From positions 20,488 through 84,487 of the forward strand of contig CAKTZI010000011.1 in NCBI GenBank assembly GCA_934635385.1: 64,000 nt of DNA. Reading direction: 5' to 3'. The translations under genes and the position numbers were made by a program. The notes beneath the pieces were generated by a model, which did no database searches, had not been told where the DNA came from, and was given only the letters and a program-made list of their open reading frames with translations. Origin of the DNA: an uncultured Kiritimatiellota bacterium (GTDB lineage Bacteria; Verrucomicrobiota; Kiritimatiellia; RFP12; UBA1067). Shown piece after piece: positions 11,461-61,965 of the stretch; positions within the stretch are counted from its first letter, which is position 1, and each line of letters opens with the position of its first letter.

Positions 11461-12156
11461 TTAAAGGAGTGTCAGCATCTCGTCTGACGTCTTTCGCTCC
11501 CGCCTGTCTTGCAGTACTTCTTCCCTTGTCCGCATCGGTCGTCCCAAGAACGCTTCCACAAGAGCCTTTGCCCGTGTACGCTCCGCGTCTGTGGCATTGT
11601 AACGCTTGCAGTCGGAATCGAATATCCTTTCAAACGACGCCACATACGTCTCATATCGTCCCAGACAATATCGATAGGCGCGACGCCACGACTCGAATTT
11701 CTGGGGGTTATTCTTTCTCAACCGAACGGATTCGCCATTTGAGGCCATCGCTTTCCATCGGTCGAGTTCCCGTCTCATCCATCCGAATTGCCGAATTTTG
11801 GCTTTGCATTCGTCCTCAATCGTCCATCGCCCCGTCTCGCTCCACCGATAGGGCATCAGCCAACTCCAAACGTTTACGAACACACGGCATTGCCGTTCGT
11901 AGTCTTCGCCTTGAAGCTTGACGTCACACAATTTGTCGTCCAAAATCCGATAACAGGCCGCGCGAACGGCTCGGTTCGTCTCCGACAGGATCAGATCGCC
12001 CACGCGGTCGAGCGGGTCTCGCACATTCGGTTCGCCCAGCCGCCGAATGGCCCTGTCTGCCTTTTTCTCGACTTTGCGAAGGAAAGGGTCTTTTCCTCCG
12101 TCGCAGCCCACGACCGTCAGTGCTATCAGAATGCCGAATAAGATATGCCTTACCAT
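11461..12156 (-). CDS. Hypothetical lipoprotein.
   Basis: 231 aa. MVRHILFGILIALTVVGCDGG contains a lipobox. It overlaps the upstream gene by 7 nt (ATGGTAA). No recognisable family. Confidence 0.6.
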   Translation of the reverse strand: MVRHILFGILIALTVVGCDGGKDPFLRKVEKKADRAIRRLGEPNVRDPLDRVGDLILSETNRAVRAACYRILDDKLCDVKLQGEDYERQCRVFVNVWSWLMPYRWSETGRWTIEDECKAKIRQFGWMRRELDRWKAMASNGESVRLRKNNPQKFESWRRAYRYCLGRYETYVASFERIFDSDCKRYNATDAERTRAKALVEAFLGRPMRTREEVLQDRRERKTSDEMLTLL

Positions 12157-15100
12157 AGTTTCACCCCATCAAGATAAACAGATCCCAGCACCTCGCGGAC
12201 GGCCTCATGCCGCAGCTTGCGCACGCCCGCCGTGCCGAATTCGTCAATTGTGAACGTCTGCGTCTCGTCCGCCGCAAAGCACTTCCAAGGTTCCGCGCCG
12301 TCAGTCGTTTGGGGGACATTCCAGCCCAAGGGAATGCACCAGACGTTCTCCCCTGCAATCCATCCCACGGACAGGGATTCGGAGAGCTGTCCGCCCGGCG
12401 TCATGCGCGGATACGGTTGCGTACACGCCGCCGTGTCACGCGCATCAATGATGTTCTCGTCCAGGACGCGAAACCAGACTCCAGCACCATTCTCACGTGA
12501 GTGGCAGCGGTCTCCGTCAAAGTAGGAATGCGTGAAATAGCCGGTCTGAACGCCCATCGTCGATGGCACTTCCTCGACCCAGATCTCCTGGAACGAGACG
12601 TCCAGAGGAAGAACCTGTATGTCCAGCTGAAGTCCGATTCCGCCCGCGCTAAGCGACGAAAGCCCGTATGTGACTACGCCGGGATTGAGCGCGCGGACGC
12701 CTGACGGCTCCACGACCAGGATCGAGGGCGTATAGGAGACTCCGCCGCAAACGACTTCCAGCGGATTCGACTCGGCGTCAAGCGGGCATCGGTATGTTTT
12801 GTCCTTCTGCATCCTGCCACCGCCTTTCACATTCCACGAAACGTTCGCGACTTCTGGTTCAAAACCGCAGTCGATCAATTCATAAACGCCAAACTTATGT
12901 CGTCCTTCGCTTCCGTTTCCGCCTTCAATCTGAATCGGTCTAATTGTGACCTTGACCGCCGTCAGCGTCGCCTCGGACGTGATCTTCTCCCCGCTCTCCT
13001 CCTCGGTGAAGGTCGCGACGGCCTTGACGTCGCCCGCGCCGCCGCTCGCCGACTGCGCCCGGTACCTCACCTTGATCTTGAACGACTCGCCCGCCTCGAC
13101 CGTCCCCTCGCGCGGCAGGAACGAGCCGCCCACACGTTCGAGCCGTCCGCCGTCGCGCAGCTCGAAGGAATACGAGCCGCCCTTCGTCCCGCCGTAGACG
13201 CTGAACTCGGCTTCGGTCTCCGTCGAGCGCCGCGCGACCGTCTCGCCCGGCGCGTTCTCGTACTCGTCCTCGAAGATGATCGCGGACTCGGAGAACGTCG
13301 CCGAGACGGACAGCCCCTGCGGCTCGTGGTCAGGCTCGTCCTCATCGGGATACGTCGGCCTGTCGGGCGGCGACTCGTGCGAGCAGCCGCAGGGCCAGTC
13401 CGCGAACGACAGCTCGAAGCCCTCGAAGCGGCACGTGTACGTCCCGACCGCGCAGCCTCCGCAGCCGCAGTTCCCGTCGCAGCTGAACAGGGGCACGGTG
13501 AACGGCGGTGGCGGCGGCTCAAGGCAGCAGTAGTTGCCGTTCCACGACACGTCGGCGCCGTCGGGCGCGGGCGTGAAGCGCACGCGCCGTCCGCCTGACG
13601 CGGCGCGGGGCGCGACGGCGGACGCACGGAACGCGGCGACGGGCGAACCGTCCACGATCTCGCACCGGACAGGGCGGCAGACCGTCAGGTGTCCGTCCGC
13701 GTCTACGCCAATTTCGATGTCGGGATGGGATGCGCCGACGCAGACGAGCGTCAGCCGGCAATCGGCGGTGTAGGACTTGCCGAGCAGAAGGACGACGCGG
13801 TTCGTCTCGCCGGCCTTCGCGACGAACGATGGATCGGGCAGGTTCGACGCGCCGCTGCCCGTGAACGTCACGAGGGCGTTCGCGGCAGGGGCGACGAGAT
13901 CGACCCAGTAGTAGTTGTTGGAATGCGCGATGGAGGACAGGTCTTGGCGCGGGCCGAACTGCGGCTCGTCCGCCGCGACAAGCGGCGCGCCGTCCACGTC
14001 ATTCGGGATGCCGTCGTCGTCCCAGTCGTCAGGGTTGACGCGGCGATAGACGCGCTCGATGTCATTGGAGCGCGCGATGAAGTCGCCGTTCGGGAAGAGC
14101 TCGAGCTGCGCGTTGACGGCTGGATGGTCAACAACCTGTCTCTTGACCACGGAAGACACGGAAGCCACATTCGTGGACACAGAAAGGATTAGCGAAGAAT
14201 GCCCTTCGGGGTTCTCCAATCCGTTTTCTCCCAACATGTTCCCAGAAGTTGGGAGAACAGGGGTTGAGGAATCCCGAAGGGCTCCTTTCTCTAACCCATT
14301 CCGTGTCACCGGAGGCGTTTCATCTCTTTCCGTGGTTTGAGAAGAAGAAACGGACACTTCCGCTCTCTCATACGGGTTGCCGAGGAAGAAGTTCTCCCAC
14401 GTCAGCACGACCGAGCCGTTCGTGGTCGCCGCCGTCCAAAGATAGGACTGTCCGTGTCGCGCGAACATCGGCGCGCCGATGACGGCGATCTCGTTCGAGG
14501 CGTTCCGCAGCTGCGGGCGCACCTTGCCCCACGTGTGCGCCCAGAGCGACGTCACGACGTGGCGACCCAAAGGGAAAAGGAAGATGGAAGAAGGAAGAAG
14601 TGCGGAACGGTCCGCTTTCCTGTGCTGTCCGACGGCCTCGGATTCCGCAACAGAGGAGTTGTCCTCCGCACTTCTTCCTTTTCCCTTCTTCCCTTTTCCT
14701 TCCTCCCCCAACATCACCCATACACGCCCCCTGTAGGCGTCGGTGAGATGCCACGTGCTGACGAGCCGTGCGTTCGTCGGTCGCGTGTAGGAAACGGCCT
14801 TGTTCGTCCGCACCGCTTCGAGGCGGTAGCCCCGCACGACGTCGTTGGATGAGAGAGTGGGGTTGCTGTCGCCTAACGCGGAGTTGTAGGAGGAGGGGAG
14901 GCACGGAGTTTCTTTACTGTCTGTCGAAGTTTTGTCCACGGATTGACACGGATTATCACGGATTTGGATTTGTGTCGCTTCGTGTTGATTCGTGGATGAT
15001 CCTTCTCCCGATCCGTGTGAATCCGTGAAATCCGTGGATGCCTCTCCGTGCCTCCGCATCTCCTCATCCTCCGCATTAAGCGTCGCAGACCCCTCTGCGG

Positions 15101-15368
15101 ATGCCGCAGGCATCACTTCCTCAATTCGTGCCGATTCGTGAAGATTCGTGGCTACATTCGCCGGTTTCTGCGCGAAGACCGTCGCGACGACGACCGCCGT
15201 CACGAGGTCGGCCTTGCTGGACGGCGGCAGCCTAACGAACTGCTCCAACAACCCAAGCAGAAACTTTCGTGCGCACACAGCGGTCGCCGCCGCGAGGCAT
15301 CCGCCCGCAAGAGCCACGCAAGCCCACACGAAGTACGGTGTACGAAAGATTTCCGCAACTGTTCTCAT
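12150..15368 (-). CDS. Large membrane-anchored hypothetical protein (1072 aa) carrying several in-frame repeat-element insertions in its N-terminal third.
   Basis: Long ORF with an N-terminal TM helix (YFVWACVALAGGCLAAATAV) and the start preceded by TGATATAAT. The C-terminal two thirds have ordinary protein-like composition. No family recognised. Confidence 0.7.
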   Translation of the reverse strand: MRTVAEIFRTPYFVWACVALAGGCLAAATAVCARKFLLGLLEQFVRLPPSSKADLVTAVVVATVFAQKPANVATNLHESARIEEVMPAASAEGSATLNAEDEEMRRHGEASTDFTDSHGSGEGSSTNQHEATQIQIRDNPCQSVDKTSTDSKETPCLPSSYNSALGDSNPTLSSNDVVRGYRLEAVRTNKAVSYTRPTNARLVSTWHLTDAYRGRVWVMLGEEGKGKKGKGRSAEDNSSVAESEAVGQHRKADRSALLPSSIFLFPLGRHVVTSLWAHTWGKVRPQLRNASNEIAVIGAPMFARHGQSYLWTAATTNGSVVLTWENFFLGNPYERAEVSVSSSQTTERDETPPVTRNGLEKGALRDSSTPVLPTSGNMLGENGLENPEGHSSLILSVSTNVASVSSVVKRQVVDHPAVNAQLELFPNGDFIARSNDIERVYRRVNPDDWDDDGIPNDVDGAPLVAADEPQFGPRQDLSSIAHSNNYYWVDLVAPAANALVTFTGSGASNLPDPSFVAKAGETNRVVLLLGKSYTADCRLTLVCVGASHPDIEIGVDADGHLTVCRPVRCEIVDGSPVAAFRASAVAPRAASGGRRVRFTPAPDGADVSWNGNYCCLEPPPPPFTVPLFSCDGNCGCGGCAVGTYTCRFEGFELSFADWPCGCSHESPPDRPTYPDEDEPDHEPQGLSVSATFSESAIIFEDEYENAPGETVARRSTETEAEFSVYGGTKGGSYSFELRDGGRLERVGGSFLPREGTVEAGESFKIKVRYRAQSASGGAGDVKAVATFTEEESGEKITSEATLTAVKVTIRPIQIEGGNGSEGRHKFGVYELIDCGFEPEVANVSWNVKGGGRMQKDKTYRCPLDAESNPLEVVCGGVSYTPSILVVEPSGVRALNPGVVTYGLSSLSAGGIGLQLDIQVLPLDVSFQEIWVEEVPSTMGVQTGYFTHSYFDGDRCHSRENGAGVWFRVLDENIIDARDTAACTQPYPRMTPGGQLSESLSVGWIAGENVWCIPLGWNVPQTTDGAEPWKCFAADETQTFTIDEFGTAGVRKLRHEAVREVLGSVYLDGVKLW
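14197..14282. repeat. Imperfect inverted repeat (about 35-bp arms) inside a CDS.
   Basis: gcccttcggggttctccaatccgttttctcccaac pairs with gttgggagaacaggggttgaggaatcccgaagggc. Confidence 0.7.
14572..14707. repeat. Purine-rich/pyrimidine-rich inverted repeat element inside a CDS.
   Basis: gggaaaaggaagatggaagaaggaagaagtgcgga pairs with tccgcacttcttccttttcccttcttcccttttccttcctccc. Confidence 0.75.
14870..15152. repeat. Nested palindromic elements. The outer element is CGGAG-type (14870-15082), the inner is CACGGAT-type (14936-15037), and a CACGAAT-type tail follows.
   Basis: Outer arms are cgcctaacgcggagttgtaggaggaggggaggcacggag and ctccgtgcctccgcatctcctcatcctccgcattaagcg. Inner arms are ccacggattgacacggattatcacggattt and atccgtgtgaatccgtgaaatccgtgg. 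Confidence 0.8.
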
Positions 15369-52084: not shown

Positions 52085-54592
52085 TCACTTGTTCAATGTC
52101 GTGTGGCTGCCGCGTTTGATCAAGACGGCGAGGACGGCGATGTCGGCTGGGTTCACGCCGGGTATGCGGCTTGCCTGTGCGAGCGTTTCGGGACGGAATT
52201 TCTTCAGTTTCTCACGGCTCTCATAGCGCACAGCCAAGCACTTGTCATAGTCGAGCCATTTCGGAATGACGAGTGCTTCGTCCTTCTTGGCTCGTTCAGC
52301 CGCTTTCTCCTCCTGCTCAATGTACGGTGCATAATGACGCATAATCATAACTTCTCGGTCAATTCGAGAAAGGCCGTTGAGATTGGTTGGCGTGAAAGGA
52401 GTTGTAATGGGATGGCTCACACGGAGGCACGGAGACACGGAGGTTTTTAACATTGAAGACACGAAAACGTCACTTGCGGGCACGAATTTCGTGTCTGAAT
52501 GTCCGTTTCTTCTATTTTCGTGTTTATCACATTCTCTTACAAAATTCTCCGTGCCTCCGTGCCTCCGTGTGAGGCTTTCATTTTTATTGAGCCTTGTCAA
52601 AATCTCCTGATACTCTTCTTCTATCGCATCAAGCGTTTCCTTCGACAGAATGCCAATGCGCTTGGCCGCAGACAGCAATCGATAGTAGGCATTGTCCTGA
52701 CGCAGGATGAGACGTCGTTCGGCACGGCTCGTGAACATACGGTACGGCTCGTCCGTGCCCTTCGTGACAAGATCGTCAATCATGACGCCAATGTAGGCAT
52801 CCTGTCGGCTGAGAACGAGCGGCTCTTCGCCTTTGACCTTCAATGCGGCATTGATGCCCGCCATGAGGCCCTGCGCGGCCGCTTCTTCGTAGCCCGTCGT
52901 GCCGTTGATCTGTCCGGCGAAGAAAAGACTGGGAATGCGCTTCGATTCGAGCGTGTGTGTCAGCTCGCGTGCATCGATGCTGTCGTATTCGATGGCATAG
53001 GCGTAGGCGAGAAAATCGGCATGTTCAAGTCCGGCAATCGAATGCACCATCTCTTCCTGTACCTTTTCGGGTAGCGAACAGCTCAAGCCGTTCGGATAGA
53101 TGACCGTGCCGTCCTTGTCCTCAGGTTCGAGAATGACGTGGTGCTGATGGGCTTCGGCGAAGCGTACGATCTTGTCCTCAATGCTCGGACAGTACCGAAC
53201 ACCCGTTCCGACGATTTTTCCGCTATAGAGAGCCGAAACCGCGAGGTGGTCACGGATGATTTGGTGTGTCTTGTCGTTTGTATGTGTCATCCAACACGGC
53301 AACTCCGGCAAATTGTTCCACGTGGAACAACTTGGGAATGCCTGCGGCGCTGAACGCGGAGAAGACGGAGAGGCGGAGACGCGGAGTTTCAGTTCAGATA
53401 CACTCTCCAAATCATCTCCGTGTCTCTCATTCTCCATTCCCTCCGCGTTAAGCGACAGCAACCCGGTCGAACAGGGAGAAGCCTGCGGCGCTGAACACGG
53501 AGAAAACGAAGAGGCAGAGGTGCGGAGTCTCGGATCTGGTGCTTCATCCTTTAAAGAAACTTCATCTCTTCCATTCTCCTTTATCTTCGTGTTAAGCGTC
53601 GCAGACCTCTCTCGCTCTCCCTCGCTCCGTGTCAATCCGTGATAATCCGTGGCCAACTCACACGGAGGCACGGAGGCACGGAGGTTTGTCGGGTTGTCTA
53701 CAGTTTCTCCGTGCCTTCCATTCTCCCTCACCTCCGTGTTCAGCGTCGCAGACATCTCTCCCTCGCTCTCAATCCGTGCCAATCCGTGATAATCCGTGGC
53801 TAAAAAAGTGTGTTCCACGTGGAACAATGGGCGAGGGGTGGCGCCATCTTGTCGCTGGCAGACGCTGAAATCACAGCTTGAAGCCTTGAGACGCGGTGGC
53901 GTACCTGTCTTCAGGCGAATCAGCTCGAAACCAAGAGCTGAAAGGCTCTCTGAAAGCTGATTGACGGCGGGGCGTCCGTCGCCGCCGCTTTCGCGGCACT
54001 GGTCGCCGATCCAAACGCGGCCGCGCAGGGCCGTGCCGCTCGTAATGACGACGGTTCGCGCGGTGAGTGTGCCGTGACATTCCGTTTTCACGGAATGCAC
54101 GGGATAGAGAACTGGTGTTAAATCAGCGTTTAGTTTGGCTGACGATTGGCTGGTTTGAAATGAATCAGCGTTTTGTCTAATGAGTTTTGAAGGCTGCCCG
54201 ACTTCAATACCGATCACGGCATCTTCGAGAACGGTCAGGTTGGGTTGCGCGGCGATGACGGCTTGCATACGCGCGGCGTATTCCCTCTTTGCGCATTGGC
54301 AGCGCGTCGCCCAGACGGCGGGGCCTCGGCTCAGGTTGAGAATCTTCGCCTGAAGGGCGGTGGCATCCGCGTTCTTGCCCATTTCGCCGCCCAGCGCGTC
54401 GAGCTCGCAGACGAGGTGGCTCTTGGCCAAGCCGCCGATGGACGGGTTGCAGGGCATGCGCGCAATGGCATCTGCACGGGAGGTGACGAGAAGAGTCGAC
54501 ACGTTCATGCGCGCCGCCGCAAGGGCGGCTTCGGCGCCGGCATGTCCGCCGCCCACGACAATGACGTCAAACTGTGACTGTAAAAAAGACAT
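52085..54592 (-). CDS. mnmG: tRNA uridine-5-carboxymethylaminomethyl modification enzyme MnmG (GidA). At 835 aa it is enlarged by three in-frame insertions.
   Basis: [66 protein letters not shown] and [15 protein letters not shown]. Typical MnmG proteins are about 620-630 aa. The ATG at 54592 lies 6 nt after TGCTATAAT. Confidence 0.9.
52416..52573. repeat. CGGAG-type palindromic element with a nested CACGAA-type core, inside the mnmG 3' region.
   Basis: Arms are ctcacacggaggcacggagacacggagg and tctccgtgcctccgtgcctccgtgtgag. Confidence 0.85.
53313..53827. repeat. Composite of three palindromic repeat units inside mnmG, bracketed by two copies of the palindrome TTGTTCCACGTGGAACAA.
   Basis: Palindromes at 53313-53330 and 53811-53827. 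Units at 53340-53462, 53481-53652 and 53653-53800. The unit ends (gcctgcggcgctgaac... and ...gttaagcgacagcaac) are shared with 60042-60167 and 61047-61316. Confidence 0.85.
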
Positions 54593-54598
54593 GGTGAA

Positions 54599-54607
54599 AT
54601 TATAGCA
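54599..54607 (-). promoter_or_regulatory. Extended -10 TGCTATAAT, 6 nt upstream of the mnmG ATG (leaderless-type).
   Basis: The reverse complement of attatagca is tgctataat. The spacer is ttcacc. Confidence 0.55.
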
Positions 54608-54740
54608 CACTTGACGCTGATTTGTGAACAGAAAATATTTTAATGTTATGAGACGTTGAAAATTCATTTTTACGTGATTTTAGTTAAAAACATCAATTTT
54701 TGAAAGATAACCGTTTTGTCAAGAGGAAAGATGTAAAATC

Positions 54741-59388: not shown

Positions 59389-59859
59389 ATGACCGTTGCG
59401 GACAGACTGGTCGCGCTCCTGAAGGCGCAGGGACTGACGTGCGCGACGGCCGAAAGCTGCACAGGCGGCGGCGTGGGGGCGGCGATCACCGCCGTCCCCG
59501 GCTCCAGCGCGGTCTTCCTCGGCGGCGTCATCTCCTACGCGAACGCGGTCAAGCGGGACGTCCTCGGCGTGTCGCCGGCGACGCTGGAGACGGTCGGCGC
59601 GGTCTCGCCCGAAACGGCCGCGCAGATGGCGGACGGTGCGCGACGGCTCCTGAAGGCGGATCTCGCCGTTTCCGTGACGGGCATCGCCGGGCCGGACGGC
59701 GGGAGCGCGGCGAAGCCGGTCGGCCTCGTCTGGTTCGGCCTCGCGACGAGGGACGGCGTGCGCACGGAGAAGGCGATCTTCGCGGGCGACCGCGCGGCCG
59801 TGCGCGTTCAGTCCGTCACGCACGCGCTCGGCATGCTGACGGTGGGAGCGTCCGCATGA
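59389..59859 (+). CDS. CinA C-terminal domain / nicotinamide-nucleotide amidohydrolase PncC-like.
   Basis: TCATAESCTGGGVGAAITAVPGSSAVFLGGVISYANAVKRDVLGV...GIAGPDGG. Confidence 0.85.
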   Translation: MTVADRLVALLKAQGLTCATAESCTGGGVGAAITAVPGSSAVFLGGVISYANAVKRDVLGVSPATLETVGAVSPETAAQMADGARRLLKADLAVSVTGIAGPDGGSAAKPVGLVWFGLATRDGVRTEKAIFAGDRAAVRVQSVTHALGMLTVGASA

Positions 59860-61355
59860 TGAGGCGCACCGTCATTCTCGCGGCGGGGGATTTTCCGCCG
59901 CGCGGCTCGGAGCCCGAACGGCTCCTGCTGTCGGCGGCGCGTGTCGTCGCCTGCGATTCGGCGGCAGCGACGTATCGGCAGCGCTTCGGCCGATGGCCGG
60001 ATGTCATCATCGGGGATCTGGACAGTTTCTTGCCAAAAGACGCCTGCGGCGCTGAACACGGAGGAGACGGAGAGGCGGAGACGCGGAGAGTCGAGCCACA
60101 CGCCCTATCCTTCCAAAGAACTCCGTGCCTCCCTTCCTCCATCACCTCCGTGTTAAGCGAAAGCAACAAAGACGCCTGCGGCGCTGAACACGGAGAAACG
60201 GAGGCACGGCGGAGGGTTGTGCGGATTGATGATGATGAGACGAACGACCTGGACAAGGCGATTGCCTATTGCCGGACGCAGGGGTGGGCGGATTTGGTCA
60301 TCGTCGGCGCGACGGGCAGGCGCACGGATCACGCGATCGGCAACGTCTATCGTGCGCTCGCGGCGGAAGTCCCGATCGTCGAGGCCGAGGGCGCTTTCCT
60401 GCCCGTGCGCGGCAAGCTGACGTTTCGGACGTGGAAGGACGCGGGCGTGTCCGTCTTCGCGCCTGATCCGGCGACGCGGATGACGTCGCGTGGCTTGCGC
60501 TGGAAGCTGGACGGCGTGCGGTTCGCGAACCCGTACTGCGCGACGCTGAACCGCGCATCATCCGAAACGGTGACGGTCACGAGTACGCATCCGGCGTTCG
60601 TCTACGCGGCGCGCAATCCCGCCGCCGTGCGGGCGGTTGTCGCGCTCGGCTCGAACGTCGGTGCGCGCGCGACGTATCTGAAGCGGGCGCTCGCGGCGCT
60701 CGCGGCGCTGCCCGAGACGCGGCTGCTGGACGTGAGCGCGGTGCGCGAAACGGAGCCGGTGGACGTCCCGGCGGAATTTGCCGCGCAGAAGTTCCTCAAC
60801 CAGGCGGCGGTCTTCGAGACGACGCTTGCGCCACTTGCCTTCTCGCGCGCGATGCACGCGGTCGAGGATCGGCTGGGGCGTGTCCGCACGGTGCGGAATG
60901 GCCCGCGCACGATTGATCTCGACCTGATTCTCTTCGGCGACGTGCGCCTGGACACGTCGGAACTGACCCTGCCCCATCCGCGTGCGCAGGAACGCGCCTT
61001 TGTCCTCGATCCTCTCAACGAACTCGGCATCAGACTTCCTCTTGTGGCCTGCGGCGCTGAACGCGGAGGTGACGGAGCGTCGGAGACGCGGAGCCCCGTA
61101 CCGAGTGTCCCATCCCCCACAGAACCTCCGTGTCTCCCATCCTCCGCTATCTCCGTGTTAAGCGAAAGCAACTCGGTCGTGCGGGAAGAGGCCTATGGCG
61201 TTCAACGCGGAGGAGGCGGAGAGTCGGAGACGCGGAGTTCCGTGTCGGGCGCCCCATCTCCAAAACAACCTCCGTGTCTCCCCTCCTCCATCACCTCCGT
61301 GTTAAGCGACAGCAACCCGGTCGGACAGGAAGATGCCTACGGCGTTCAACGGTAA
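59856..61355 (+). CDS. Fusion of thiamine pyrophosphokinase (N-terminal) and HPPK/FolK (C-terminal), interrupted and extended by in-frame repeat elements.
   Basis: TPK part: IIGDLDS, DDDETNDLDKAI and GATGRRTDHAIGN. HPPK part: VVALGSNVG, RNGPRTIDLDLILFG and LTLPHPRAQERAFVLDPL. No stop separates the two halves. The ATG overlaps the upstream stop (ATGA). Confidence 0.8.
   Translation: MMRRTVILAAGDFPPRGSEPERLLLSAARVVACDSAAATYRQRFGRWPDVIIGDLDSFLPKDACGAEHGGDGEAETRRVEPHALSFQRTPCLPSSITSVLSESNKDACGAEHGETEARRRVVRIDDDETNDLDKAIAYCRTQGWADLVIVGATGRRTDHAIGNVYRALAAEVPIVEAEGAFLPVRGKLTFRTWKDAGVSVFAPDPATRMTSRGLRWKLDGVRFANPYCATLNRASSETVTVTSTHPAFVYAARNPAAVRAVVALGSNVGARATYLKRALAALAALPETRLLDVSAVRETEPVDVPAEFAAQKFLNQAAVFETTLAPLAFSRAMHAVEDRLGRVRTVRNGPRTIDLDLILFGDVRLDTSELTLPHPRAQERAFVLDPLNELGIRLPLVACGAERGGDGASETRSPVPSVPSPTEPPCLPSSAISVLSESNSVVREEAYGVQRGGGGESETRSSVSGAPSPKQPPCLPSSITSVLSDSNPVGQEDAYGVQR
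60042..60216. repeat. One complete 126-bp CGGAG-type unit plus a truncated second unit inside the TPK domain.
   Basis: gcctgcggcgctgaacacggag...ctccgtgcctcccttcctccatcacctccgtgttaagcgaaagcaac. The direct repeat aaagacgcctgcggcgctgaacacggag occurs at both ends. Confidence 0.85.
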
Positions 61356-61366
61356 GCGAAAGCAAC
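61047..61366. repeat. Two tandem 144-bp units (126-bp palindromic element plus 18-bp linker) and a collapsed unit in which the two termini are joined directly. Together they form the 3' tail of the TPK-HPPK ORF.
   Basis: Units start at 61047, 61191 and 61335. The third is gcctacggcgttcaacgg|taagcgaaagcaac and contains the stop codon. Confidence 0.85.
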
Positions 61367-61395
61367 CTAGAAAACGGCAAATAAGGAACGAAACG

Positions 61396-61965
61396 ATGAA
61401 TGACTATGCGAAGACAATTGCGGCGCTGAAGCGCCGCGGATACGAGGCGACGGCGGTCGCGACCAAGGAGGAGGCCTCCACCCTCATCCTGAAAGAGGCC
61501 GAGGCGGCTCAGTCCGTCGGCTGGGGCGGGTCGGAGAGCGTGAAGGCGCTCGGCGTGCGCGAGGCGCTCGCGGCGGCGGGCAAGGAGATCCGCGACCACC
61601 AGACGCAGATGGATCTCTTTCTCCTCTCGGCGAACGCGCTGACCGAGGACGGCGTGATCGTCAACATCGACGGCACGGGCAACCGCATCGCGGCGTCCAT
61701 CTACGGGCCGAAGCGCGTCGTCTACGTCATCGGGCGAAACAAGCTCGTCGCGGGCGGCGTGCTGGAGGCGATCGCGCGTGCGAAGAAATTCGCCTGCGGG
61801 CCGAACTGCCGCCGGCTCGGCAAGAAGACGCCGTGCGCCGAGAAGAACCTCTGCGCCGACTGCGACTCGCCCGACCGCATCTGCAAGGTGACGGCTGTCT
61901 TCGACCGCTGTCCGTCGCACACCTCGACCCTCGTCATCCTCGTCGACGAGCCCCTCGGCTACTGA
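61396..61965 (+). CDS. LUD-domain (lactate-utilisation YkgG/DUF162-like) protein with a C-terminal Cys cluster.
   Basis: DLFLLSANALTEDGVIVNIDGTGNRIAASIYGPKRVVYVIGRNKL. An AAGGAA Shine-Dalgarno sequence precedes the ATG at 61396. The track ORF starts inside the repeat, at 61333. Confidence 0.7.
   Translation: MNDYAKTIAALKRRGYEATAVATKEEASTLILKEAEAAQSVGWGGSESVKALGVREALAAAGKEIRDHQTQMDLFLLSANALTEDGVIVNIDGTGNRIAASIYGPKRVVYVIGRNKLVAGGVLEAIARAKKFACGPNCRRLGKKTPCAEKNLCADCDSPDRICKVTAVFDRCPSHTSTLVILVDEPLGY

What the first reader, a model, noticed from the sequence alone, without database searches (positions are those of the whole stretch)
60042..60216. Repeat unit inserted between the catalytic motifs of the TPK domain, with a duplicated junction
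A complete 126-bp unit (60042-60167) and a truncated second copy (60174-60216) lie between GDLDS and DDDETNDLDKAI. They add about 55 residues (ACGAEHGGDGEAETRRVEPHALSFQRTPCLPSSITSVLSESN...). The host-side sequence aaagac precedes both copies, so the junction looks like either a short target duplication or a slippage product.
Basis: seen in the sequence. Interest (0 to 1): 0.6.

Follow-up and report, generated by a model that had tools for sequence, protein, structure and literature searches.

The report
Mobile palindromic repeat inside a kinase gene

Summary
There is a 126-bp unit at 60042-60167 and a truncated second left arm at 60174-~60214, each preceded by AAAGAC. Both lie between GDLDS and DDDETND of the TPK domain of a fused TPK-HPPK gene (59856-61355).

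The unit belongs to a dispersed family with 74 loci (about 123 arms) in this MAG. Each unit has two inverted 48-nt arms with periodic CGGAG motifs around a variable centre.

In 109 TPK-HPPK homologues the linker between the two motifs is most often 12 aa. Here it is 67 aa, so about 55 residues are extra. All 23 congeneric genomes that have the gene lack the insert. The closest metagenomic relatives carry at least eight different repeat-derived alleles at the same site, all in frame.

AlphaFold folds both enzyme domains confidently and leaves the insert disordered. The TPK core has dN/dS 0.15-0.26.

The family makes no target-site duplications: 43 of 44 two-arm elements have flank repeats of 0-2 nt. 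The second AAAGAC corresponds in position to the longer spacers of relatives and, through the closest one, to the array spacers elsewhere. The junction is therefore not a transposition footprint. Exchange between neighbouring arms explains it better.

At least 19 loci lie in frame inside ORFs, including mnmG and two MmeI enzymes. This is an RPE-like case in a new phylum: a new member of a known kind.

The parts
59856..61355 (+). Fused TPK-HPPK open reading frame (499 aa). The start overlaps the cinA stop.
   Evidence: Pfam TPK_catalytic, Thi_PPkinase_C and HPPK. 328 fused homologues. Fold matches 2OMK for the TPK part and 8SK1/1F9H for the HPPK part.
60012..60041 (+). Host sequence GDLDS (catalytic motif) followed by FLPKD. 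The last six bases are the first AAAGAC.
   Evidence: 'GDxDS-LLPE' aligns in Bacteroides TPK 2OMK, so FLPK is host sequence.
60042..60089 (+). Left arm L1 of the repeat (48 nt, outer end GCCTGCGG).
   Evidence: Arm profile built from 123 arms.
60090..60119 (+). Centre of the unit. Its 3' half is conserved in other units and is orthologous in relatives P0002 and P0007.
60120..60167 (+). Right arm R (inverted copy of the arm, outer end ...AGCGAAAGCAAC).
60168..60173 (+). Spacer AAAGAC between R and the next arm. It occupies the place of the 6-, 18- and 24-nt spacers of relatives.
60174..60214 (+). Second left arm L2, lacking one 8-nt sub-repeat. It encodes [13 protein letters not shown]. Its inner part is shared with many relatives.
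   Evidence: Residues 111-120 are predicted helical.
60216..60248 (+). Host sequence resumes: strand VVRI, then motif DDDETND.
61046..61366 (+). Array of 2.2 further units (period 144, 18-nt spacers). It replaces the normal HPPK stop and adds a tail of about 105 aa. The stop is at 61353-61355.
   Evidence: TRF, 2.1 copies, 81% matches; relatives end at ...ELGV.. without it, or with other variants.

Best explanation
The segment 60042-~60206 (about 165 bp, 55 codons) comes from a dispersed, non-autonomous palindromic repeat family. Each unit has two inverted 48-nt arms around a variable centre, and units sometimes form tandem arrays joined by short spacers. A piece of such an array (arm-centre-arm-spacer-arm) entered the short surface linker that follows the GDxDS motif of the TPK domain in an ancestor of this sub-clade of gut Kiritimatiellae. 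It survived because it is a multiple of three, free of stop codons in the frame used, and sits in a permissive loop. It is therefore translated as a disordered excursion while the enzyme core keeps working. Since then the site has been remodelled repeatedly by deletion, unequal exchange or conversion between the directly repeated arms and their CGGAG sub-repeats. That produced many in-frame length alleles. The 28-nt identity that includes AAAGAC in this genome is one product of this remodelling, not a transposition footprint. What is shown: family membership, absence of the insert from more distant relatives, allele diversity, open frame, purifying selection on the core, disorder in the model, and lack of target duplications in the family. 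What is inferred: that the insert is translated, that the enzyme is active, and the mechanisms of mobilisation and of the junction.
For: Family: 88 BLAST matches in the genome, and 123 arms in 74 loci with a sharply bounded 48-nt profile. The family is abundant in the three closest species genomes (21, 19 and 72 matches). It was found in only 3 of 40 other relatives searched.
Insert: all 23 congeners that have the gene match residues ~3-58 and ~119-255 with only 5-8 codons between. The linker is most often 12 aa in 109 fused homologues; here it is 67 aa.
Age and dynamics: the 3' half of the centre plus the right arm are orthologous in P0002 and P0007 (77-83% nt identity). At least 8 structural alleles of 20-76 aa exist among proteins 73-89% identical, including cores that are identical or nearly so but have different inserts.
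Tolerance: AF2 mean pLDDT is 88.5, with residues 58-110 at 42-57 and the rest mostly above 90. TPK dN/dS is 0.15-0.26, including pairs where both genes carry large inserts. Inside the insert dN is 3-4 times higher. TPK is single-copy in the genome.
No TSD.
Generality: in-frame copies occur in mnmG, two MmeI enzymes, an RHS protein and about 10 large ORFs. Most are read in a different frame from the one used in TPK, so conservation is at the DNA level, not the peptide level.
Against: No autonomous partner or transposase was linked to the arms: 7 weak Y1_Tnp hits are not adjacent to repeats. No truly scar-free empty site exists among the closest relatives; the shortest alleles still look repeat-derived. 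The insert lies directly after catalytic aspartates, so an effect on activity cannot be excluded. A chance 6-nt flank identity is improbable but not impossible, because the flanks are purine-biased. The census of copies inside ORFs rests on open frames and GC3, not on a gene caller, and only 5 host genes were confirmed by Pfam.
Confidence: 0.8

Rival explanations
1. Classical transposition with a 6-bp target duplication. One 126-bp unit inserted at AAAGAC, immediately upstream of a solo arm already present in the gene (a P0012-like allele).
For: AAAGAC flanks the unit exactly on both sides. A solo-arm allele exists in a relative, P0012.
Against: 43 of 44 two-arm elements have 0-2 nt flank repeats, the same as shuffled controls. 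The second AAAGAC occupies the place of the 6-24 nt spacers of relatives, and the 24-nt one is akin to the array spacers elsewhere. The centre and right arm are orthologous in lineages that lack L1.
Confidence: 0.08
2. Purely local origin: slippage or tandem duplication of host loop sequence, with no mobile element involved.
For: 132-bp period and a 28-nt perfect direct repeat. CGGAG sub-repeats every 8-9 nt favour slippage.
Against: The same unit occurs at 74 loci on many contigs and in other genomes. L1 and L2 differ beyond the first 22 nt of the arm. The inner part of L2 is nearly identical to that of relative P0010, not to L1.
Confidence: 0.04
3. The TPK domain is inactivated, so the gene is a decaying remnant and only the HPPK part is kept.
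For: The insert directly follows the catalytic GDxDS. The motif reads DDDETND where most relatives have DQETND.
Against: TPK dN/dS of 0.15-0.26 is similar to HPPK at 0.13-0.24. All invariant residues are kept. The frame is kept in every allele. The fold is confident. DDDETND also occurs in P0010, P0011 and P0029.
Confidence: 0.06
4. The inserted peptide is a selected functional module, for example a regulatory or interaction loop, rather than tolerated selfish DNA.
For: The insert has persisted across several lineages. Residues 111-120 (from L2) are predicted helical, at the place where canonical TPKs have a helix (the canonical helix is from my own knowledge of TPK structures). Most in-ORF copies elsewhere share one reading frame.
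Against: Low pLDDT. Raised dN and dN/dS of 0.5-1.7 in the insert. It is frequently lost or rearranged. TPK uses a different frame from most other host genes. No Pfam match.
Confidence: 0.07

Closest known systems
Rickettsia palindromic elements (RPEs; Ogata et al. 2000, 2002, as summarised in PMC10969869)
   Same: Both are palindromic repeats of about 100-150 bp, present in dozens of copies. A sizeable share sit in frame inside unrelated genes, housekeeping genes included, and add peptide segments compatible with the host protein's fold.
   Different: Unrelated sequence. Here the genome is 64% GC and comes from gut Kiritimatiellae, not a reduced AT-rich intracellular alpha-proteobacterium. The arms are 48 nt with periodic CGGAG. 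Units form tandem arrays with spacers. The TPK copy is read in a different frame from most other copies. Length polymorphism at a single site is extreme.
Bacterial MITEs (Correia, ERIC, RUP, Nezha and others; review PMC10969869)
   Same: Small, non-coding, multicopy, with terminal inverted repeats. Occasional in-frame fusions with host ORFs are known.
   Different: No target-site duplication. No matching autonomous insertion sequence was found. The two arms of one element are less alike than arms of different elements.
REP/REPIN elements mobilised by RAYT (Y1) transposases
   Same: Inverted doublets that can form long hairpins. No target duplication. Clustering into arrays.
   Different: The arms are not themselves short palindromes. 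The elements are not confined to extragenic space. The 7 weak Y1_Tnp-like genes in the genome are not flanked by the repeats. Pairing in the stem is not preserved by compensatory changes.
Bacteroides thetaiotaomicron thiamin pyrophosphokinase, PDB 2OMK (closest solved host protein)
   Same: Same fold (TM 0.81 by target) and the same motifs: GDxDS-LLPE ... I-x-DQETND ... GATGxRxDH.
   Different: 2OMK has about 12 residues between the motifs and is not fused to HPPK. The window protein has 67.

Membership tests
Thiamin pyrophosphokinase (host gene) | Pfam TPK_catalytic plus the thiamin-binding C-terminal domain, above the curated cut-offs | tested here: met
   PF04263 54.5 bits (cut-off 30.7), matched in two stretches split by the insert. 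PF21275 35.3 bits (cut-off 27)..
Thiamin pyrophosphokinase (host gene) | Conserved motifs GDxDS, D-x-x-T-N/D-D and GATGxRxDH, and the TPK fold | tested here: met
   The motifs are invariant in alignments A1 and A2. Foldseek match to 2OMK, E 1e-16.
MITE | Small, multicopy, no transposase ORF, terminal inverted repeats | tested here: met
   Elements are 103-229 bp. There are 74 loci. The arms are 48 nt, about 69% identical within an element.
MITE | Target-site duplication of fixed length flanking each copy | tested here: not met
   Flank repeats of 0-2 nt in 43 of 44 elements, equal to the shuffled control.
MITE | A related autonomous IS with the same terminal repeats | tested here: inconclusive
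   None was seen near clustered copies on contig C6. Only Y1_Tnp was searched genome-wide. The MAG is 88% complete.
REP/REPIN-RAYT | Short palindromic REP units that flank or are associated with a RAYT gene, largely extragenic | tested here: not met
   The Y1_Tnp hits are weak (24-35 bits) and none is next to an arm. At least 19 of 74 loci are intragenic.
RPE-like protein-coding palindromic repeats (a functional class, not a sequence family) | Palindromic repeat copies inserted in frame in several unrelated genes whose relatives lack them | tested here: met
   TPK-HPPK. mnmG, about 155 aa relative to 2ZXH. Two MmeI enzymes, between the MTase and TRD domains, and an RHS protein.
RPE-like protein-coding palindromic repeats (a functional class, not a sequence family) | The insert is translated and lies on the protein surface without destroying function | not testable with these tools
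   Only indirect evidence: low pLDDT for the loop with a confident core, and dN/dS of 0.15-0.26.
Rickettsia RPE sequence families | Sequence homology to RPE-1 to RPE-10 | not tested
   No RPE sequences were available. Rfam gave only sub-threshold hairpin noise.

The most novel reading that the evidence does not exclude
This sub-clade of gut Kiritimatiellae carries an undescribed class of mobile palindromic element (48-nt arms with phased CGGAG motifs, no target duplication, array-forming). It persists unusually often inside coding sequence, with at least a quarter of loci intragenic, including mnmG, TPK-HPPK and restriction enzymes. It also turns single protein loops into hypervariable sites. 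That would be an independent, non-Rickettsia system for watching new peptide segments arise from selfish DNA, possibly driven by a new kind of transposase or recombinase.
Probability: 0.3. Interest if true: 0.65.

Novelty: new member of a known kind. Interest (0 to 1): 0.5.

Why it matters
In-frame colonisation of genes by palindromic repeats has been regarded as a hallmark of Rickettsia. Here the same outcome appears in an unrelated, GC-rich, free-living gut lineage. Unusually, one site has a rich series of natural alleles: 20 to 76 residues in an otherwise conserved enzyme. This is a natural experiment on how much insertion a catalytic-domain loop tolerates and how repeat DNA becomes protein sequence.

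There is also a practical point for annotation of these MAGs. Long or oddly split domain hits (TPK, MnmG, MmeI) and C-terminal tails are repeat-derived. They are not new domains or assembly errors.

Tried and rejected
- Rfam scan of 59500-61700: only sub-threshold miRNA-like hairpin hits, no family.
- Earlier findings of this scan, looked up by place and by sequence: nothing held.
No read-level or expression check was possible.
- Y1 (RAYT-type) transposase as mobiliser: 7 weak hits, none adjacent to arms.
- Search for an autonomous element among the clustered copies on contig C6: the neighbours are MFS, GFO/IDH/MocA and Zn-ADH genes, no transposase.
- Hairpin kept by compensatory change: rejected. 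Arms within an element are 0.69 identical against 0.73 between elements. The RNA fold of the region is only modestly better than shuffles (z -2.3).
- First attempts with wrong frames or strands were corrected.
- Literature searches for Kiritimatiellae repeats and for a described TPK-HPPK fusion found nothing specific.
- Assembly artefact: rejected. The exact 499-aa protein is on 6 contigs from three sources, and independent assemblies carry related alleles.

Full report
**1. What is in the sequence**

The region reads cinA (59389-59859), then an ORF that starts at ATG 59856 and runs to a stop at 61353-61355. Pfam finds TPK_catalytic, matched in two stretches, the TPK thiamin-binding domain, and HPPK in this one 499-aa product. 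It is a fused TPK-HPPK protein.

Between GDLDS (60012-60026) and DDDETND (60228-60248) lie, in order:
- host codons FLPKD, ending in AAAGAC (60036-60041);
- a 48-nt left arm (60042-60089);
- a 30-nt centre;
- a 48-nt inverted right arm (60120-60167);
- AAAGAC again (60168-60173);
- a second left arm (60174-~60214) that lacks one 8-nt sub-repeat.

Host sequence then resumes as VVRI. The two stretches 60036-60063 and 60168-60195 are identical over 28 nt, and the period is 132 bp.

**2. The unit is a dispersed repeat, not local sequence**

The 126-bp unit gives 88 BLAST matches across many contigs of the 3.93-Mb, 102-contig MAG. A core-motif scan with filters gives 123 arms in 74 loci. Of these, 46 have two arms, 27 have one and one has four.

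The arm profile is sharply bounded. It has 8 outer bases in four variants, most often GCCTGCGG. Then come CGCTNAACRCGGAG and about 26 bases with CGGAG recurring every 8-9 nt. Beyond the end there is only a weak purine bias. Elements are 103-229 bp long.

The two arms of one element are less alike (0.69) than arms taken from different elements (0.73). The stem is therefore not maintained by compensatory change. The RNA fold of the region is only modestly better than shuffles. No Rfam family matches.

The family is abundant in the three species genomes closest to this one (21, 19 and 72 matches). It is also abundant in one genome of another family of the same order (34 matches). Two other congeners gave 3 and 1 matches, and the remaining 37 relatives searched gave none.

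Record titles identify the clade as uncultured Kiritimatiellaeota/Verrucomicrobia MAGs, several from human-gut studies.

**3. It is an insertion relative to other TPKs**

In all 23 congeneric genomes that have the gene, the protein matches residues ~3-58 and ~119-255, with only a few codons between. Their linkers are 6-20 aa, for example GDCDS-VRGRFANVVRI.

Among 109 fused TPK-HPPK homologues, the stretch from GDxDS to the second motif is 12 aa in 46 of them. The window's 67 aa is the second longest. The solved Bacteroides TPK 2OMK aligns as GDGDS-LLPE ... ILQISDQETND, with about 12 residues between. FLPK is therefore host sequence, and about 55 residues (about 165 bp) are extra.

**4. The site is old and very unstable**

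Proteins 73-89% identical to the window's carry different repeat-derived sequences at the same place:
- only the inner part of an arm (..HGETEARRR-VVRI; P0010, P0015, P0123);
- a full solo arm (P0012);
- half-centre, right arm, spacer and arm, with spacers of 6, 18 or 24 nt (P0007, P0006, P0002; the 6- and 24-nt lengths were read in DNA, the 18-nt one for P0006 is inferred from its protein);
- partial arm, centre, right arm, spacer and arm (P0003, P0008);
- the same plus 15 more residues (P0005);
- a short scar (P0013).

The half-centre plus right arm of the window is 77-83% identical in DNA to those of P0002 and P0007, at the same junction. The insertion therefore predates these lineages.

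On a tree of the enzyme core, the long alleles fall in three sub-lineages of one poorly resolved clade, beside short alleles. Cores that are identical or nearly so carry inserts of 45, 61 and 76 aa. One cluster at about 90% identity or more includes forms with and without the large insert.

All recovered alleles are in frame. That is partly a sampling effect, because only intact ORFs were retrieved.

**5. The duplicated junction**

Of 44 convergent two-arm elements in the genome, 43 have flank direct repeats of 0-2 nt, as do shuffled partner flanks. Only the TPK copy has 6 nt. The family therefore does not make target duplications.

The second AAAGAC occupies the position of the R-to-L spacer. 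This spacer is ACAGAT in P0007, 18 nt in P0008 and 24 nt in P0002. The 24-nt spacer of P0002 resembles the 18-nt spacers of arrays behind HPPK and inside mnmG. The second AAAGAC thus belongs to the inserted array.

The first AAAGAC is the host P-K-D, where relatives read P-N or P-D. The 22 arm bases of the 28-nt identity are simply the family consensus.

I infer that either conversion or unequal exchange between the two adjacent direct arms extended a few bases into the flank, or the match is helped by the purine-rich flank preference. I cannot decide between these. A deletion between the repeated ACGCC at 60039-60043 and the ACGCC just before the conserved half-centre would give exactly the junction seen in P0002, P0007 and P0013. 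This fits deletion-driven diversification, but it is an inference.

**6. Is the enzyme still working?**

AlphaFold2 with 109 sequences gives mean pLDDT 88.5 and pTM 0.87. Residues 58-110 score 42-57, residues 111-120 (encoded by L2) form a helix, and both domains are mostly above 90. The model matches TPK 2OMK and many HPPK structures. All invariant residues are present.

TPK-core dN/dS is 0.15-0.26, including pairs where both genes have large inserts (window-P0002 0.15; P0002-P0008 0.24). This is close to HPPK at 0.13-0.24. Within the insert dN is 0.20-0.23 and dN/dS is 0.5-1.7, on only 22 codons.

TPK is single-copy in this MAG. Together these results argue for a functional enzyme carrying a weakly constrained loop. 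Translation and activity remain untested.

**7. The same thing happens in other genes**

Sixteen loci lie in stop-free frames with strong coding GC3 on both sides in the same frame. Pfam confirms two MmeI-type restriction-modification enzymes, with the repeat exactly between the methyltransferase and target-recognition domains, and an RHS-repeat protein.

In this same window, mnmG/gidA (52085-54667, minus strand) is 860 aa. About 155 extra residues (window 53309-53818), read from a repeat array, lie between residues 249 and 265 of Aquifex MnmG. Relatives G041-G043 also have repeats inside mnmG.

The HPPK end is extended by about 105 aa from 2.2 units.

Most in-ORF copies are read as ..PAALNTEETE.., whereas TPK reads the same arm as ACGAEHGG. 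Conservation is therefore in the DNA, not the peptide. Counting TPK and the two mnmG clusters, at least 19 of 74 loci are intragenic. This is a rough count made without a gene caller.

**8. Comparison with what is known**

The behaviour matches Rickettsia palindromic elements. These are repeats of about 150 bp inserted in frame in many unrelated genes and compatible with the host proteins' folds (review PMC10969869, citing Ogata 2000 and 2002).

The element is not a textbook MITE, because it makes no target duplication and no autonomous partner was found. It is not a REP/RAYT system either, because its arms are not short palindromes, it has no RAYT association and it is often intragenic.

I found no paper on such repeats in Kiritimatiellae.

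**9. Verdict**

The target-duplication reading is not supported. The finding is one visible instance of a lineage-specific, RPE-like repeat family. Novelty: a new member of a known kind. Interest is moderate (0.5), mainly for the allele series at one catalytic-domain loop and for extending the phenomenon to a new phylum.

Noticed in passing
window 52085-54667 (-), insert about 53309-53818: mnmG/gidA is 860 aa instead of about 630-650. An in-frame insertion of about 155 aa, read from an array of the same repeat family, lies between residues 249 and 265 of Aquifex MnmG 2ZXH. Close relatives also carry repeats inside mnmG.
   Followed up: partly
window 61046-61366: 2.2 further repeat units (period 144, 18-nt spacers) replace the usual HPPK stop and add a tail of about 105 aa. 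Relatives show tails of other lengths or none. The third unit is just the two outer ends joined.
   Followed up: partly
window 59856-61040: TPK and HPPK, two pyrophosphokinases from different vitamin pathways, are fused in one ORF. 328 such fusions were found, mostly about 340 aa, in Kiritimatiellae-type MAGs. Some more distant congeners have a separate TPK. I found no paper describing this fusion.
   Followed up: partly
G000 C4:25580-29116 (L066) and C18:55795-59520 (L067): Two paralogous MmeI-family restriction-modification enzymes each carry the repeat in frame in the linker between the methyltransferase and target-recognition domains. The inserts differ in length (70 and 35 aa).
   Followed up: partly
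window 14862-15090, inside ORF 12150-15368 (-): Another two-arm copy of the repeat lies inside a 1072-aa open frame with no Pfam match and weak coding signal. It is unclear whether this is a real gene.
   Followed up: no
G000 C6:98672-98825, C6:100449-100602, C8:71644-71797, C33:8095-8248: Four identical 154-bp copies with identical flanks, each within a repeated block of about 300 bp, lie between metabolic genes (MFS transporter, GFO/IDH/MocA oxidoreductase, Zn-ADH). This suggests recent spread or segmental duplication. No transposase is nearby.
   Followed up: partly
protein P0017 (relative), same TPK linker: A different short tandem repeat (SEMRPYxC twice) occupies the same linker in another lineage. 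The loop therefore accepts insertions of more than one origin.
   Followed up: no
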